Virus genome (UHGV): UHGV-0182515
Reading direction: 5' to 3' (one strand)
From: a virus
Length of the DNA: 42,850 bases
Shown: in pieces, positions 9,482 to 15,134 of the stretch
Layout of the letters: each line of letters opens with the position of its first letter
How positions within the stretch are numbered: position 1 is the first letter of the stretch
The notes under the pieces: model-generated
The model's database searches: none
What the model saw: only the letters and a program-made list of their open reading frames with translations
Told to the model about the DNA's origin: nothing
Made by a program: the position numbers and the translations under genes

Positions 9482-10141
9482 TTAACTAAATGTCTCTTCA
9501 GGCCACTGGCTGGCGATAACTTTCCCTACTACGGAACAGCTATCATTGCATGGAATCATTGGATATTGCGGGTTTAGTGGCTGTAGGAACACCTGACCGC
9601 TATCCCTGATCAGTTTCTTGAAGGTAAACTCGTCACCACCAAGTCTGGCTATGCAGAAATCACCTGGCTCAACAGCCTGCTCAGGGTCAACGAGAATTAA
9701 CATCCCGTCAGGAAAGCTTGGCTTGGATCCTGTTGGCGCGGTCATGGAATTACCTTCAACTTCAAGCCAGAACGCACAATCACTGGCTTTTTTGGTTGTG
9801 CTGACCCATCTCTCCGCATCACCTTTGGTAAAGGTTCTAAGCTCAGGCGAGAACATCCCGGCCTGAACATGAGAAAAAACAGGGTACTCATATTGTTTTT
9901 TTAACGGGGGCAGAGAGTATTCGCCAACAGGTGAAAATGTACCGTCGTGGTTGAATGAGACGTTATCAATACCAAGGTATTTAAACACCACACCAATCTC
10001 GTCAAGAGATGGATGACGAGATCCGCGCAACCAGTGACCAATTCCACCCTGCGTCATACCAAGCTCTTCAGCTAACCTCTCTTGAGTTATGCCGAGCTCT
10101 TTCATTCTGGATCTAGCCAGTTCATACCATTTCATTTTCAT
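9482..10141 (-). CDS. cI: CI-type prophage repressor (heterologous HTH N-domain joined to a lambda-like S24 C-domain)
   Basis: C-terminal part [18 protein letters not shown]...EVEGNSM...FKKL... is near-identical to lambda CI (catalytic Ser and Lys present); N-terminal 90 aa are an unrelated HTH domain. Confidence 0.85.
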
Positions 10142-10509: not shown

Positions 10510-10588
10510 ATCAAATTAAACCACACCTATGGTGTATGCATTTATTTGCATACATTCAATCAATTGTTATCTAAGGAAATACTTACAT

Positions 10589-10882
10589 ATGGTTCGTGCA
10601 AACAAACGCAACGAGGCTCTAAGAATCGAGAGTGCGTTGCTTAACAAAATCGCAATGCTTGGAACTGAGAAGACAGCGGAAGCTGTGGGAGTTGATAAGT
10701 CGCAGATCAGCAGGTGGAAGAGGGACTGGATTCCAAAGTTCTCAATGCTGCTTGCTGTTCTTGAATGGGGCGTCGTTGACGACGACATGGCTCGATTGGC
10801 ACGACAAGTTGCTTCGATTCTCACCAATAAAAAACGCCCGGCGGCAACCGAGCGTTCTGATCAAATACAAATGGAATTTTAA
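10589..10882 (+). CDS. cII: CII transcriptional activator
   Basis: MVRANKRNEALRIESALLNKIAMLGTEKTAEAVGVDKSQISRWKRDWIPKFSMLLAVLEWGV.. is essentially lambda CII. Confidence 0.9.
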   Translation: MVRANKRNEALRIESALLNKIAMLGTEKTAEAVGVDKSQISRWKRDWIPKFSMLLAVLEWGVVDDDMARLARQVASILTNKKRPAATERSDQIQMEF

Positions 10883-10904: not shown

Positions 10905-11177
10905 ATGCGAAACAAAGGCTTTAATCCACCTGATACACACAAAGAAGCTAAGCGTTTGCGCTTCCTTCGTTCCATTGATGAAAGAACTCAAATCTCTTTT
11001 GTGAAAGTTGCCAGAACTGAGCTTCTGAAGGCTGAGGCGAGGGCGTTGCTCCCGTCTCTACCAAAAGAGGAGGGATATACGTTCATTCCAAACGCATTTC
11101 TGGAAAAGCTTCTCAAAGAAGACATATCCGTAAGTCAGTTTAACGATGTTCTTAAGGTCTTTCGTCAAGGCAGGTAG
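10905..11177 (+). CDS. Hypothetical protein between cII and the replication genes (90 aa)
   Basis: ORF starting at the first ATG after the cII stop; basic; no recognised domain. Confidence 0.4.
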   Translation: MRNKGFNPPDTHKEAKRLRFLRSIDERTQISFVKVARTELLKAEARALLPSLPKEEGYTFIPNAFLEKLLKEDISVSQFNDVLKVFRQGR

Positions 11178-11179
11178 TT

Positions 11180-12127
11180 ATGAGCAATACAGCAAAAATC
11201 TACGATTTCAGCGCCGCACACGAGCGCAGGAGCAACAGGATGGAGAACCAGAAAACTGGTTACATTCCGTTGTACCGGAGCATTCTGAAACAGTCATGGG
11301 CGAAAGATGTTTATCTTCGCACCCTGTGGGAAAACCTTCTCCTGAATGCCGCCAGAAAGCCATACAAAGCGAATTTCAAAGGTCATGAATGGCATCTGCA
11401 ACCCGGTCAACTGGTTGTGACAGCAGCTGATTTAGGTCTTCAGTTATGCGACAGACATGGCAAGCCAGCAAGCCGTGATCAGGTTGAGCGGATGCTTCAG
11501 GTTTTTGTGAAAGAAGGGATGATCTCCATTGATGGAGAGAAGCAAAAAGGTCGTGTGATCACCATCACAAATTACCATGAATATGCTCAAAAAATGGACA
11601 ATTTACCCGCACATGATGCCGCACAAACAACCGCACATGATGCCGCACATGACGAAGCCAGTAATGGCGCAGCTTTCAGCGCACATTCCGCACATGAAAG
11701 CGCACATGAAGCCGCACAAACAACCGCACATCATGAACAAGAAGGTATTAACAAGAATATAAATAATACCCCCCTACCCCCCAATGGGGGCGGCGATGGG
11801 CAGGTTAAACCTGAACGTCGCAAGGCAGAACGAATCGACTACGAATCCTTCCTGAACGCCTACAACACCGAAGTCGGTGACAGACTTCCACATGCTGTTG
11901 CAGTCAACGAGAAACGCAAACGCCGCCTGAAGAAAATCATCCCGCAACTGAAAACGCCAAACGTGGACGGTTTCAGAGCGTATGTCAGGGCGTTTGTGCA
12001 TCAGGCCAAGCCGTTTTACTTCGGAGACAACGACACGGGCTGGACGGCTGATTTTGATTACCTGTTGAGGGAAGATTCGTTAACGGGAGTACGGGAAGGG
12101 AAGTTTGCAGACAGGGGGATTGCATGA
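11180..12127 (+). CDS. Replication initiator, O-like (contains the origin repeats)
   Basis: N-terminus [11 protein letters not shown] resembles lambda O (MTNTAKILNF..); the internal AH/AQ-rich segment is encoded by tandem DNA repeats. Confidence 0.7.
11606..11770. repeat. Putative replication origin: tandem about 12-bp iterons (CCGCACATGAxx) in two clusters followed by an AT-rich block
   Basis: Repeats CCGCACATGATG / CCGCACAAACAA / CCGCACATGACG etc. read directly; AT-rich aacaagaaggtattaacaagaatataaataata follows. Confidence 0.55.
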
Positions 12128-13500
12128 GACAGGATATCGAAGCGAGCGTTATCGGTGGCCTGCTGATTGGTGGATTAACTCCAACCGCCAGCGACGTTCT
12201 GGCAACGCTGGAGCCGGAAGCGTTTTCAATTCCGCTCTACCGGAAAGCCTTCGAGGTTATCCGCAAGCAGGCGCGAAACAGAAATTTAATCGACGCGCTG
12301 ATGGTTGCCGAGGCGTGCGGAGAGGAGCATTTCACGTCAATCCTGATGACCAGCAAAAACTGCCCGAGTGCCGCAAACCTGAAGGGATATGCCGGAATGG
12401 TCGCGGATAACTATCACCGCCGTCTGGTGCTGGAAATCATGGATGAAATGCGTGAACCAATTCAGAGCGGAACCATCGACGCATCGAGTCAGGCGATGGA
12501 TGAACTTGTAAAGCGTCTTTCAGCCATCAGAAAGCCCCGTGACGAGGTTAAACCGGTACGGTTAGGGGAAATCATCACTGACTACACTGACACGCTTGAC
12601 AGGCGTCTGAGGAACGGAGAAGAGTCAGATACCCTGAAGACCGGAATCGACGAACTTGACGCCATCACCGGAGGGATGAACGCAGAAGACCTGGTGATTA
12701 TCGCCGCTCGTCCCGGTATGGGTAAAACCGAACTGGCGCTGAAGATTGCCGAAGGCGTTGCAAGCCGCGTTATTCCTGGTTCTGACGTCCGGCGCGGAGT
12801 GTTGATTTTCTCAATGGAAATGAGCGCATTGCAGATTGCAGAGCGAAGTATTGCCAACGCCGGGAGGATGTCGGTTAGTGTGCTGCGAAATCCTGCATCG
12901 ATGGATGACGAAGGCTGGGCGCGCGTTGCTAACGGCATGAGTCAGCTTGCAGATTTGGATGTATGGGTAGTCGATGCCTCGCGGTTATCGGTCGAAGAAA
13001 TACGCTCAATCGCAGAACGGCACAAACAGGAAAATCCAAACCTGTCACTCATCATGGTGGATTATCTTGGCCTGATTGAGAAGCCGAAAGCAGATCGCAA
13101 CGACCTCGCAATTGCTCACATCTCCGGAAGCCTGAAGGCGATGGCGAAAGACCTGAAAACGCCTGTTATCTCCCTGAGTCAGCTTTCGCGCGATGTTGAG
13201 AAGCGACCAAACAAACGCCCGACAAACGCAGATTTGCGTGATTCAGGAAGCATTGAACAGGACGCAGACTCAATCATCATGCTCTATCGGGAAGCTGTAT
13301 ATGACGAGAACAGTAGCGCCGCGCCATTTGCTGAAATCATTGTGACGAAAAACCGTTTTGGCTCACTTGGTACGGTTTACCAGCGGTTCTGCAACGGACA
13401 CTTTGTTGCATGTGACCAGGATGAAGCCAGACAGATTTGCACAGCATCAAATGCACCTGCTGCGCGTGGCAGACGATATGCACAAGGGGCTGACGTATGA
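12124..13500 (+). CDS. Replicative DNA helicase, DnaB family
   Basis: Walker [13 protein letters not shown] and conserved DnaB C-terminal motifs; start overlaps the stop of the O-like gene. Confidence 0.85.
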
Positions 13501-13573
13501 CCATCTACATCACTGAGCTAATAACAGGCCTGCTGGTAATCGCAGGCCTTTTTATTTGGGGGAGAGGGAAGTC

Positions 13574-14014
13574 ATGAAAAAACTAACCTTTGAAATTCGA
13601 TCTCCGGCACATCAGCAAAACGCTATTCACGCAGTACAGCAAATCCTTCCAGACCCAACCAAACCAATCGTAGTAACCATTCAGGAACGCAACCGCAGCT
13701 TAGACCAAAACAGGAAGCTTTGGGCTTGCCTTGGTGACGTCTCTCGTCAGGTTGAATGGCATGGTCGCTGGCTGGATGCAGAAAGCTGGAAGTGTGTGTT
13801 TACCGCAGCATTAAAGCAGCAGGGCGTTGTTCCTAACCTTGCCGGGAATGGCTTTGTGGTAATAGGCCAGTCAACCAGCAGGATGCGTGTAAGCGAATTT
13901 GCGGAGCTATTAGAGCTTATACAGGCATTCGGTACAGAGCATGGCGTTAAGTGGTCAGACGAAGCGAGACTGGCTCTGGAGTGGAAAGCGCGATGGGGAG
14001 ACAGGGCGGCATGA
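13574..14014 (+). CDS. ninB: NinB (Orf-family recombination mediator)
   Basis: [56 protein letters not shown].. matches lambda NinB. Confidence 0.85.
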
Positions 14015-14187
14015 GACGACAGCGACGAAGTATCACCGACATCATCTGCGAAAACTGCAAATACCTTCCAACGAAGCGCTCCAGAAATAAACGCAAGCCA
14101 ATCCCAAAAGAATCTGACGTAAAAACCTTCAACTACACGGCTCACCTGTGGGATATCCGGTGGCTAAGACATCGTGCGAGGAAATGA
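14011..14187 (+). CDS. ninE: NinE-like small basic protein
   Basis: ATGA overlap with the ninB stop; [23 protein letters not shown].. recalled as NinE-like. Confidence 0.55.
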
Positions 14188-14189
14188 CG

Positions 14190-15134
14190 ATGACTGCGTA
14201 TTACAACGAAATAGATCCGTATGCAGCGCAATGGCTGCGTAACTTAATTGACGCTGGAGAAATTGCCCCCGGTTATGTAGATGAAAGGAGTATTGAAGAT
14301 GTCACACCAGGTGATTTGCGAGGATTTACCCAGCACCACTTTTTTGCAGGAATCGGAGTTTGGAGCTATGCACTTAGAAAAGCAGGATGGCCAGACAACA
14401 AGAGTATCTGGACAGGAAGTTGCCCATGCCAACCTTTCAGCTCGGCAGGCAAAGGAAAAGGGGTTGATGACGAGCGGCACTTATGGCCGGCATTCTTCTG
14501 GCTTATTGAAAAATGCAATCCTGGCATCGTTATTGGCGAACAGGTTGCAAGCGCAGACGGCCTCGCTTGGCTCGACCTTGTACAAACTGACTTGGAAGGT
14601 GCGAACTACACCTCTGCAGGTACCGATATTTGCGCTGCGGGCTTCGGTTCTCCGCACATTAGGCAGCGATTGTATTGGGTGGCCTACTCCAACGACAAAT
14701 ATCAACTTTCAGCCAGAGACGCGCAGGGGAATTCAGAACCTATCTGGATGCGTGAGACTAGCGGGATGGCAAACTCCTTTAGCGAACGATGCAACAGGTT
14801 CAACGCATTGCTACAGCGGAAAAGACAAGAGCGGAACCCCAAGAATCTGCTTGAAACTTCCCGGGACGGTGAAGCTATGTACCCATTACCGGTTAACGGC
14901 TTCTGGAGAGATGCAGACTGGCTTTACTGTAGAGATGAAAAATATCGTCCAGTTAGACCCGGCTCATTCCCGATGGTTAATGGCATTGCCAAAAGCTTGG
15001 GACGAGGCAAGTCCACACTGGGAAGAATGGCAAAGCGCAATCAAGATCAGCGAATTATTGGATATGGAAACGCAATCAATGCAGAAGTAGCAACGGCATT
15101 CGTGAAAGTTTGTATGGAGGTTGTTAATGCTTAG
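14190..15134 (+). CDS. DNA (cytosine-5)-methyltransferase, orphan
   Basis: Motif I FFAGIGVW, motif IV PCQPFSSAG (catalytic Cys), motif VIII RQR and motif X GYGNAI are present; GEQV sits where ENV is expected. No adjacent restriction endonuclease gene. Confidence 0.7.
   Translation: MTAYYNEIDPYAAQWLRNLIDAGEIAPGYVDERSIEDVTPGDLRGFTQHHFFAGIGVWSYALRKAGWPDNKSIWTGSCPCQPFSSAGKGKGVDDERHLWPAFFWLIEKCNPGIVIGEQVASADGLAWLDLVQTDLEGANYTSAGTDICAAGFGSPHIRQRLYWVAYSNDKYQLSARDAQGNSEPIWMRETSGMANSFSERCNRFNALLQRKRQERNPKNLLETSRDGEAMYPLPVNGFWRDADWLYCRDEKYRPVRPGSFPMVNGIAKSLGRGKSTLGRMAKRNQDQRIIGYGNAINAEVATAFVKVCMEVVNA

What the first reader, a model, noticed from the sequence alone, without database searches (positions are those of the whole stretch)
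11606..11790. Iteron array and AT-rich block inside the O-like gene: probable replication origin
At least eight about 12-bp direct repeats (CCGCACATGAxx variants) are followed by an AT-rich stretch and a C6...G5 inverted repeat. This has the same architecture as the lambda origin inside gene O, but with different iteron sequence, implying a different initiator specificity.
Basis: partly seen in the sequence, partly recalled or inferred. Interest (0 to 1): 0.35.

Follow-up and report, generated by a model that had tools for sequence, protein, structure and literature searches.

The report
Replication origin inside prophage initiator gene
This is very probably the replication origin of a lambda-like E. 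coli prophage: binding-site repeats for the phage's initiator protein plus an easily melted AT-rich stretch, all inside the initiator's own gene. This is a known design with a repeat sequence that I did not find described.

Summary
Window 11607-11735 holds eight in-register 12-bp direct repeats (core CCGCACAT). They form two arrays of four, separated by a 33-bp spacer that contains a ninth, off-register core. A 32-bp block of 19% GC follows (11737-11768), then a weak C5/G5 inverted repeat.

All of this lies in the linker of an O-like initiator gene (11180-12127). A DnaB-type helicase gene follows (12124-13500). The context is a lambdoid prophage (cI, cII, NinB).

Evidence for an origin:
- The repeats cluster far beyond chance.
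- In 45 related loci from many Enterobacterales the same layout recurs.
- Two four-fold-degenerate codon positions inside the core are almost invariant (about 1.9 bits, against 0.57 in the flanking domain).
- A one-base core switch (CGCACA to CGCGCA) tracks three residues (82, 100, 110) of the predicted helix-turn-helix.
- More distant initiators carry different 12-bp-periodic repeats at the same place.
- The AT-rich block is the least stable 32-mer in 11000-13500. It is also the mosaic joint between the origin-specificity module and the helicase-partner module.

Binding, unwinding and autonomous replication are inferred, not shown. I rate it a new member of a known kind, of modest interest.

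The parts
11180..12127 (+). O-like replication initiator gene (315 aa). N-terminal origin-binding domain, repeat-encoded linker, and a C-terminal domain of the P22 gp18 / HK97 gp54 type.
   Evidence: ORF. Pfam Phage_rep_O at aa 20-132, E = 3e-15. PHROG 345 'replication initiation O-like'. 98% identical to O of CUS-3, HF4s and JEP4. aa 187-315 are 95% identical to HK97 gp54.
11267..11596 (+). Predicted winged helix-turn-helix origin-binding domain (aa 30-139). Helix 2 is aa 82-88, the recognition helix aa 99-111, the wing aa 115-129.
   Evidence: AlphaFold2 model, mean pLDDT 73, core blocks 74-91. Foldseek hits are only weak (E >= 0.014), mostly to wHTH DNA-binding proteins such as CodY, MarR, ArsR/SmtB and TubR. 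Residues 82, 100 and 110 co-vary with iteron core position 5.
11607..11654 (+). Left iteron array: four 12-bp direct repeats with core CCGCACA(T/A).
   Evidence: Unit positions 2-7 carry 1.8-2.0 bits, position 1 1.2 and position 8 1.3, across 142 units of 22 A-type loci. Positions 9-12 carry 0.1-0.6 bits.
11655..11687 (+). 33-bp inter-array spacer. The 5' half is conserved (AAxCCAGTAATGGCGCGGCTT). Contains an off-register, non-conserved ninth CGCACA at 11680-11685.
   Evidence: Spacer length is 33 bp in the 46 surveyed loci where both arrays were placed (two needed correction for a spurious extra unit). Per-position profile. The ninth core is absent in CUS-3.
11688..11735 (+). Right iteron array: four 12-bp direct repeats. 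The last abuts the conserved CATGAACAAGAAGG junction.
11737..11768 (.). AT-rich, purine-skewed block: the probable DNA-unwinding element. It also holds the mosaic breakpoint (11751-11763) between the N-domain/iteron module and the C-domain/helicase module.
   Evidence: 19% GC. Least stable 32-mer in 11000-13500 and top 0.1% of the window. Similarity to Klebsiella and Yersinia phages ends at 11763. Similarity to HK97, ST104 and many E. coli prophages starts at 11751-11753.
11769..11790 (.). C6-TA-C6-AAT-G5 short inverted repeat (arms about 11777-11781 and 11786-11790). It sits where lambda has its right-hand ori palindrome.
   Evidence: Conserved in HK97, ST104, S.Inf 5-2, ENT1 and L049. Not thermodynamically significant (z = -0.98), and it also encodes PPNGGG.
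12124..13500 (+). DnaB-like replicative helicase (P22 gene 12 type), translationally coupled to the O-like gene (ATGA overlap).
   Evidence: Pfam DnaB_C 1.2e-78 and DnaB N-domain 4.6e-13. PHROG 19. The C-domain type of O tracks the partner type across loci.

Best explanation
This segment is the vegetative replication origin (ori) of a lambdoid prophage, embedded in the linker of its own initiator gene.

Proposed mechanism:
1. After induction, rightward early transcription makes the O-like protein.
2. Its N-terminal winged helix-turn-helix domain binds the eight 12-bp direct repeats (core CCGCACAT, two arrays of four). This builds a multimeric nucleoprotein complex like the lambda O-some.
3. 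The strain from that complex opens the adjacent 32-bp AT-rich block.
4. The P22 gp18-type C-terminal domain of the initiator brings in the phage's own DnaB-type helicase, encoded next door. Theta replication then starts.

Shown here: the anatomy, DNA-level purifying selection on the repeat core, co-variation of the core with helix-turn-helix residues, the stability minimum, and the modular inheritance. Inferred from the lambda and P22 paradigms: binding, bending, unwinding and helicase recruitment.
For: 1. **Context.** cI, cII, O-like gene, DnaB-like helicase and NinB lie in lambdoid order. The window is 98-100% identical to E. coli prophages and to phages CUS-3, HF4s and JEP4.
2. **Clustering.** 9 same-strand cores in 136 bp, P about 1e-18. 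The simulated maximum was 3.
3. **Conserved layout.** 47 loci were parsed: 43 of the 47 found in GTDB genomes, spread across about 20 enterobacterial genera, plus the window and three phage records. In the 46 where both arrays could be placed, there are n units, a 33-bp spacer, n units (n = 3 or 4), then CATGAACAAGAAGG and an AT-rich block.
4. **DNA-level selection.**
   - Core positions 2 and 5 are third positions of four-fold-degenerate codons, yet carry 1.85-1.95 bits. The mean for 25 four-fold sites in the adjacent N-domain is 0.57 bits.
   - The first base of the xCC codon varies, giving P, A, T or S, while CC stays fixed.
   - Positions 9-12 are scrambled, which excludes recent duplication as the cause.
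5. **Specificity co-variation.** 22 aligned A-type loci (CGCACA) have D100 and A/P82. 23 aligned G-type loci (CGCGCA or CGAGCA) have H100 and S/T82, with no exception. Locus L037 is closest to A-type proteins but has G-type repeats. It differs from its A-type neighbours by A82S, D100H and V110E, the only three positions where it carries the G-type consensus residue instead of theirs. These residues map to the starts of helix 2 and of the recognition helix, and to the recognition helix's end, in the model.
6. **Distant initiators.** N-domains only 45-47% identical carry different repeats at the same position. ENT1 has CCnGTCGAA, S.Inf 5-2 has CCAxxCGAT, and Sodalis L056 has CGrTACAC.
7. **AT-rich block.** It is the local stability minimum and purine-skewed as in lambda.
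8. **Modularity.** The same N-domain and iterons occur with a lambda-type C-domain plus a P-like protein (40 loci), or with a gp18-type C-domain plus DnaB helicase (window, L043). The joint lies in the AT-rich block.
9. **Literature.** Iterons inside O / gene 18 are established for lambda. They are proposed for P22 (four repeats of about 20 bp) and phage L (six 11-bp repeats) (PMC8022706; PMC7466680).
Against: - There is no experimental datum for this origin type. I found no paper on these repeats, and CUS-3 has no ori annotated in the stretch examined.
- The repeats are direct 12-mers without dyad symmetry. The binding mode of lambda O, a dimer on a palindromic 19-mer, therefore cannot simply be transferred.
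- The co-variation rests on about two independent switches (one large G-type clade plus L037). Shared ancestry explains part of it.
- The structure model is of moderate confidence, and the fold matches are weak (E >= 0.014).
- The C5/G5 hairpin is not significant.
- Natural variants with only 3 to 5 units and no spacer exist. The full two-array design is therefore not strictly required, or else those prophages are defective.
Confidence: 0.85

Rival explanations
1. The repeats are only a by-product of a repetitive, flexible peptide linker (A-H-D/E-A). Replication slippage generated it, and it has no role as DNA.
For: The array encodes a low-complexity AH-rich linker between two folded domains. 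Linker length varies widely in nature, from 284 to 377 aa equivalents, as expected for a tolerant linker.
Against: Conservation follows the DNA register, not the codon register. Four-fold-degenerate third positions are nearly invariant (1.85-1.95 bits against 0.57), while the amino acid encoded by the xCC codon varies. The synonymous GCA/GCG switch is all-or-none within a phage and tracks helix-turn-helix residues. The inter-core bases are scrambled, so recent slippage cannot explain the core identity.
Confidence: 0.04
2. The repeats are genuine initiator-binding sites, but they serve mainly in control: autoregulation of O and helicase expression, a transcription roadblock, or copy-number handcuffing. 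Strand opening would then occur elsewhere.
For: Plasmid iterons do double duty in control (my own knowledge). The sites lie inside the transcribed initiator gene, upstream of the helicase gene. The two arrays with a fixed spacer could pair or loop.
Against: The adjacent block is the least stable DNA in 11000-13500 and is conserved in position next to the last repeat in all loci. No second repeat cluster exists anywhere in the window. In the lambda paradigm the same arrangement is the origin.
Confidence: 0.07
3. The conserved junction (CATGAACAAGAAGGTAATAACAAGAAT) is primarily a 'boundary sequence'. It would be kept because it promotes homologous exchange of modules among lambdoid phages, and the repeats would be incidental.
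For: Mosaic breakpoints fall at 11751-11763. The junction sequence is conserved across loci whose downstream modules are unrelated. The CUS-3 record annotates boundary sequences elsewhere.
Against: This does not explain the core conservation, the co-variation with the helix-turn-helix, or the AT-richness. It is compatible with the origin reading rather than an alternative to it, since a domain linker that is also the unwinding element tolerates crossover.
Confidence: 0.03

Closest known systems
Bacteriophage lambda ori (four iterons, AT-rich region and right-hand palindrome inside gene O)
   Same: - The origin lies in the linker of the initiator gene.
- Repeats lie on the promoter-proximal side. 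A purine-skewed AT-rich block of about 30-40 bp comes next, then a short inverted repeat.
- The initiator has a Phage_rep_O N-domain.
- The N-domain sets ori specificity, and the C-domain sets the partner.
   Different: - Lambda iterons are 18-19-bp dyad-symmetric sites spaced about 20-24 bp apart. Here they are 12-bp direct repeats without dyad symmetry, arranged 4 + 4 around a 33-bp spacer.
- N-domain similarity to lambda O is marginal (32% over 65 aa, E = 0.009).
- The partner is a DnaB-type helicase, not the lambda P loader.
P22 / HK97 gene 18 and gene 12 replication module
   Same: - The C-terminal domain (aa 187-315) is 95% identical to HK97 gp54, which its record describes as similar to P22 gp18.
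- A DnaB-like helicase follows with the same ATGA overlap.
- The CCCCC...GGGGG element is shared.
   Different: - The N-terminal domain is unrelated by BLAST.
- The HK97/P22-type linker carries TTAGC-N-GCTAA-type repeats of about 19-20 bp instead of CCGCACAT.
- The window gene is therefore a natural hybrid joined in the AT-rich block.
Phage L gene 18 putative origin (six imprecise 11-bp repeats, TGTCCAACGGA)
   Same: Short (11-12 bp) repeats inside an O / gene 18 homologue that precedes a DnaB-type helicase. That origin was also proposed from sequence only (PMC8022706).
   Different: The repeat sequence and the initiator sequence type differ. No two-array, fixed-spacer layout is reported for phage L.
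Iteron-type plasmid origins (winged-helix Rep initiators such as RepA, pi and RepE)
   Same: Direct repeats are bound (here, predicted to be bound) by a winged-helix initiator, next to an AT-rich unwinding element. The comparison rests on my own knowledge.
   Different: Plasmid iterons are 17-22 bp and lie outside the rep gene, usually with DnaA boxes. Here no DnaA box lies near the array, and the sites are coding. No sequence or strong fold match to plasmid Rep proteins was found.

Membership tests
Lambdoid phage origin embedded in the initiator (O / gene 18) gene | Lies inside the initiator coding sequence, between the N-terminal DNA-binding domain and the C-terminal partner-binding domain. 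| tested here: met
   The array at 11607-11735 encodes aa 143-186 of the 315-aa O-like protein. The Pfam N-domain ends at aa 132. Homology to the gp18-type C-domain starts at aa 187.
Lambdoid phage origin embedded in the initiator (O / gene 18) gene | The initiator belongs to the Phage_rep_O family. | tested here: met
   PF04492, 56.9 bits against a cut-off of 28.7. PHROG 345.
Lambdoid phage origin embedded in the initiator (O / gene 18) gene | A cluster of repeated sequences (iterons) under selection as DNA. | tested here: met
   Clustering P about 1e-18. Four-fold-degenerate core positions carry 1.85-1.95 bits against a 0.57 background.
Lambdoid phage origin embedded in the initiator (O / gene 18) gene | Iteron sequence co-varies with the initiator's DNA-binding domain (cognate specificity). 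| tested here: met
   The A/G core switch tracks residues 82 and 100 without exception, and residue 110 in most G-type loci, across 45 aligned loci with at least two switches. N-domains 45-47% identical carry different repeats.
Lambdoid phage origin embedded in the initiator (O / gene 18) gene | An AT-rich unwinding element directly downstream of the iterons. | tested here: met
   11737-11768: 19% GC, and the least stable 32-mer in 11000-13500.
Lambdoid phage origin embedded in the initiator (O / gene 18) gene | The initiator binds the repeats, and the segment supports initiator-dependent replication. | not testable with these tools
   This needs EMSA or footprinting and an ori-plasmid assay. 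The only circumstantial hint is a circular 42.6-kb lambdoid genome deposited as a plasmid, with a related O/P pair and no replicon type listed in the record output.
Lambda-type iterons specifically | Sites of about 18-19 bp with internal dyad symmetry, each bound by an O dimer. | tested here: not met
   The units are 12 bp and all in one orientation. No reverse-complement core lies in the array, and no inverted repeat was found within or between units.
Lambda O-P type replication module | The downstream partner is a lambda P-like helicase loader that hijacks host DnaB. | tested here: not met
   The downstream gene is a 458-aa DnaB-like helicase. Most relatives with the same iterons do have a P-like partner.
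P22 gene 18/12 type module | A gp18-type C-terminal domain followed by a gp12-type DnaB helicase. | tested here: met
   95% identity to HK97 gp54 over aa 187-315. Helicase domains. The HK97 and ST104 records annotate these genes as P22 18/12-like.
P22 gene 18/12 type module | A P22-type N-terminal domain with its cognate repeats of about 20 bp. | tested here: not met
   There is no BLAST alignment N-terminal of aa 187. The HK97/ST104 linker has different repeats.

The most novel reading that the evidence does not exclude
This origin family may use a different nucleoprotein geometry from lambda. Monomeric winged-helix domains would bind head-to-tail on 12-bp direct repeats, forming two equal-sized filaments (3+3 or 4+4). 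A fixed 33-bp conserved spacer would hold the filaments apart and might itself bind a further factor.

The family would also carry a simple natural recognition code. One base in the core (A or G at position 5) would be read by residues 82, 100 and 110 of the helix-turn-helix. That would give ready-made orthogonal initiator-origin pairs.
Probability: 0.25. Interest if true: 0.5.

Novelty: new member of a known kind. Interest (0 to 1): 0.3.

Why it matters
This initiator and repeat type is common. It occurs in 713 of 5,426 complete E. coli genomes, 272 of them with the full gene. It is also found in many Stx2a-converting phages, in K1-capsule phage CUS-3, and in prophages of about 20 enterobacterial genera. 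Yet no origin is annotated in the records examined, and I found no description of it.

Knowing the origin and its specificity determinants has three uses:
- It helps predict replication compatibility and exclusion between co-resident lambdoid prophages.
- It explains why the mosaic joint sits where it does.
- It offers a simple natural test case for how a winged-helix initiator reads its site, with three residues matched to one base.

It does not change the general picture of lambdoid replication.

Tried and rejected
- **Whole-window motif enrichment.** Not significant. Only the clustering is, so the test was redone as a scan statistic.
- **PDB sequence search** with the initiator: no hit at E <= 1.
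- **Foldseek on the N-domain model.** Only weak, generic winged-helix hits (best E = 0.014). They support the fold class and nothing more.
- **DNA folding of 11730-11800.** The hairpins are no more stable than in shuffles. I therefore do not claim a structural role for the C5/G5 repeat.
- **Inverted repeats downstream of the AT block across loci.** They are heterogeneous: strong (9-10 bp) in the Xenorhabdus/Proteus and Citrobacter-type loci, but at chance level in many others. This is not a universal feature.
- **DnaA boxes.** None lie near the array.
- **Literature.** A search for the repeat sequence returned only unrelated primer matches. Searches on CUS-3, P22 gene 18 and lambdoid replication modules found the general concept but not this repeat.
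- **Phi80 gene 15 as a relative**, suggested by a note in a Klebsiella phage record. A tblastn search of the phage collection with the N-domain did not list phi80 among the hits shown.
- **Plasmid records.** Matches are circular phage-sized records. This is weak evidence only.

Full report
**1. What is in the sequence**

Window 11607-11735 contains eight 12-bp units in strict register. Four lie at 11607-11654 and four at 11688-11735, separated by a 33-bp spacer. The conserved core is CCGCACA(T/A), and the last four bases of each unit vary.

A ninth CGCACA at 11680 lies inside the spacer, 9 bp out of register with the right array. It is not conserved in the 98%-identical phage CUS-3.

The + strand of the window has 22 CGCACA in all, and 9 fall within 136 bp. 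About 0.04 would be expected from the outside density (Poisson P about 1e-18). In 300 second-order Markov simulations the largest cluster was 3. The motif is not enriched over the window as a whole. The signal is therefore the clustering, the single orientation and the 12-bp phase.

Directly after the last unit comes a 32-bp block (11737-11768) of 19% GC, in a window of 47% GC. It is the least stable 32-mer between 11000 and 13500 and lies in the top 0.1% of the whole window. It is 72% purine on the top strand. The lambda AT-rich region is 67% purine on the same strand.

Next come C6-TA-C6-AAT-G5 (11769-11790), which can form a 5-bp stem. A 7-bp stem (GGTATTA / TAATACC) spans the AT block itself. 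Together they fold no better than shuffled sequence (z = -0.98).

**2. Context**

The segment lies in a 315-aa ORF (11180-12127). Its residues 20-132 match Pfam Phage_rep_O (E = 3e-15).

The next gene (12124-13500, ATGA overlap) is a DnaB-family helicase. The neighbours are a cI-type repressor (9482-10141, minus strand), cII (10529-10882) and NinB (13556-14014), in lambdoid order.

The gene is 100% identical to a prophage gene of E. coli FDAARGOS_1256. It is about 98% identical to the O genes of CUS-3, HF4s, JEP4 and many Stx2a-converting phages. 713 of 5,426 complete E. coli genomes have a match. No origin feature is annotated in the CUS-3 stretch examined.

**3. The gene is a natural hybrid, joined in the AT-rich block**

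- DNA similarity to Klebsiella and Yersinia phages (82% and 73%) covers the N-domain and the repeats and stops at about 11763.
- Similarity to HK97, ST104 and hundreds of E. coli prophages begins at about 11751-11753 and covers the C-terminal domain.
- Residues 187-315 are 95% identical to HK97 gp54, a P22 gp18-type protein. The N-terminal part has no BLAST match to gp54 and only a marginal one to lambda O.
- In 49 loci compared, the C-terminal domain type tracks the partner gene. The gp18-type goes with a DnaB helicase in 5 loci. The lambda-O-type goes with a lambda P-like protein in 42 loci, including lambda itself. Two loci have singleton C-domain types. This holds regardless of which repeat type is present.

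This is the classical division of labour in lambdoid initiators: the N-domain reads the origin and the C-domain recruits the helicase system.

**4. The repeats are selected as DNA**

I collected 47 loci from GTDB genomes that encode relatives of the N-domain, from about 20 enterobacterial genera. I parsed 43 of them, plus the window, CUS-3 and the Klebsiella and Yersinia phages (47 loci in all).

In the 46 parsed loci where both arrays could be placed, the layout is the same. There are n units, a 33-bp spacer, n units (n = 3 or 4), then CATGAACAAGAAGG and an AT-rich stretch.

Across 142 units of CGCACA-type loci, positions 2-7 carry 1.8-2.0 bits, position 1 carries 1.2 and position 8 carries 1.3. 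Positions 9-12 carry 0.1-0.6 bits.

In the reading frame the unit is xCC-GCA-CAT-nnn. Unit positions 2 and 5 are third positions of four-fold-degenerate codons, yet they are nearly invariant (1.85-1.95 bits). In contrast, 25 conserved four-fold codons of the adjacent N-domain in the same loci average 0.57 bits at the third position.

The first base of the xCC codon does vary, giving Pro, Ala, Thr or Ser. The conservation therefore follows the DNA register and not the peptide. The scrambled inter-core bases exclude recent duplication as the cause.

**5. Co-variation with the initiator**

The parsed loci split into 23 with CGCACA cores and 24 with CGCGCA or CGAGCA cores. GCA to GCG is a synonymous change. 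The two types are almost never mixed within one locus.

In the N-domain alignment (22 A-type and 23 G-type loci), two columns separate the types without exception. Residue 100 is Asp in all 22 A-type proteins and His in all 23 G-type proteins. Residue 82 is Ala/Pro against Ser/Thr. A third column, residue 118, also separates the types, but it is variable within both and I give it no weight.

G-type proteins form one large clade plus one outlier, L037 from Yersinia vastinensis. L037 is closest to A-type proteins (85% to L023). There are only three positions where L037 carries the G-type consensus residue instead of the one its A-type neighbours share: A82S, D100H and V110E.

An AlphaFold2 model of residues 1-147 (mean pLDDT 73; blocks 31-130 at 74-91) gives a winged-helix topology. 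Helix 2 spans residues 82-88, helix 3 spans 99-111, and a beta-hairpin wing spans 115-129. The three residues thus sit at the N-termini of the two HTH helices and at the end of the recognition helix. Foldseek hits are weak (best E = 0.014), and most are to winged-helix DNA-binding proteins.

More distant N-domains (45-47% identity) keep the layout but carry other repeats. Enterobacter phage ENT1 has CCnGTCGAA, Salmonella phage S.Inf 5-2 has CCAxxCGAT, and a Sodalis prophage has CGrTACAC. The last two are again 12-bp periodic.

Caveat: the A/G co-variation rests on about two independent events, so shared ancestry contributes to it.

**6. Population variation**

Among 78 IMG/VR loci with N-domains at least 99% identical to the window's, 74 have the same 130-bp array and four have 163 bp.

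Protein databases also hold minority variants with 3, 4 or 5 units and no spacer (284-292 aa). Others have three or four arrays (346 aa and a 377-aa equivalent). These are evidently products of unequal crossing-over between units.

The peptide linker is thus very tolerant of length. At least three cores next to the AT-rich block are always kept.

**7. Mechanism proposed**

By analogy with lambda (PMC7466680) and P22:
1. The N-domain binds the cores and assembles a multimeric complex.
2. The adjacent AT-rich block melts.
3. The gp18-type C-domain recruits the phage DnaB-type helicase.

These steps are inferred. The direct, non-palindromic 12-bp units argue for head-to-tail binding of single winged-helix domains, rather than lambda's dimer-on-palindrome mode. 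No DnaA box lies nearby.

**8. Comparison with what is known**

The design is that of lambdoid origins. A phage L genome paper (PMC8022706) states three things:
- Lambda has four iterons of about 20 bp inside gene O.
- P22 gene 18 has four different repeats of about 20 bp.
- Phage L gene 18 has six imprecise 11-bp repeats proposed as its origin.

Short direct repeats in an O / gene 18 homologue are therefore not new in kind. Other genome papers note several O-homologue types combined with P22-type helicases (PMC10307801).

I found no description of the CCGCACAT / CCGCGCAT repeat family, its two-array fixed-spacer layout or its co-variation. The searchable library omits much of the older subscription literature, so absence there is not proof.

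**9. Verdict**

I rate it a new member of a known kind, at interest 0.3. What lifts it slightly above routine:
- the clean DNA-level selection signal;
- the predicted match of three residues to one base;
- the unexplained conserved 33-bp spacer.

Noticed in passing
window 11655-11687, and the equivalent position in L002-L055: The spacer between the two repeat arrays is 33 bp in the 46 surveyed loci where both arrays were placed. Its 5' half is conserved (AAxCCAGTAATGGCGCGGCTT, encoding PSNGAA), and its 3' half is free. As in the repeats, 'CC' is fixed while the first codon base varies. This hints at a DNA-level constraint, possibly a binding site for another factor.
   Followed up: partly
L037 (Yersinia vastinensis) 2501-2863, compared with L023, L003 and L040: This initiator is nearest to CGCACA-type proteins but carries CGCGCA-type repeats. 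There are only three positions where it has the G-type consensus residue instead of the one its A-type neighbours share: A82S, D100H and V110E. It is a natural candidate for a minimal specificity switch.
   Followed up: yes
proteins P0001, P0013, P0042, P0045 and P0050; IMG/VR loci L069 and L097: Near-identical initiators differ in repeat number. Some have 3, 4 or 5 units without a spacer, and others have three or four arrays with two or three spacers. Four IMG/VR loci have arrays 33 bp longer. Unequal crossing-over between units seems to be ongoing.
   Followed up: partly
window 11214-11223: A tenth near-copy (CCGCACACGA) lies at codons 12-14 of the O-like gene, in a poorly modelled N-terminal extension. 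The same AAH peptide occurs in the S.Inf 5-2-type initiator, which has unrelated repeats. It is therefore probably coding only. Many database entries start the protein at Met21 instead.
   Followed up: partly
L013, L017, L018, L029, L032, L039, L042, L046 (Xenorhabdus, Proteus); L021, L024, L025, L027, L051, L052: In these relatives the AT-rich block is itself a strong perfect palindrome. Examples are ATCTAATAAT-AA-ATTATTAGAT (10-bp stem) and ATTAAATAC-TAAC-GTATTTAAT (9-bp stem), both well beyond shuffles. The window's version has only a 7-bp stem with a 13-nt loop.
   Followed up: partly
L057 = NZ_CP077781.1 (K. pneumoniae pCDI231-42.6); also the CP148757-type 36.7-kb Salmonella records: Circular, phage-sized 'plasmid' records are lambdoid genomes carrying a related O gene and repeat array. 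No replicon type appears in the output for the Klebsiella record. They may be episomal phage genomes or assemblies of induced prophages.
   Followed up: partly
window 11973-11997: Tandem Repeats Finder reports a 12-bp unit (TCAGAGCGTATG) in 2.1 copies inside the C-terminal domain coding region.
   Followed up: no
window 14148-15134: A 328-aa ORF lies downstream of NinB. I did not analyse it.
   Followed up: no
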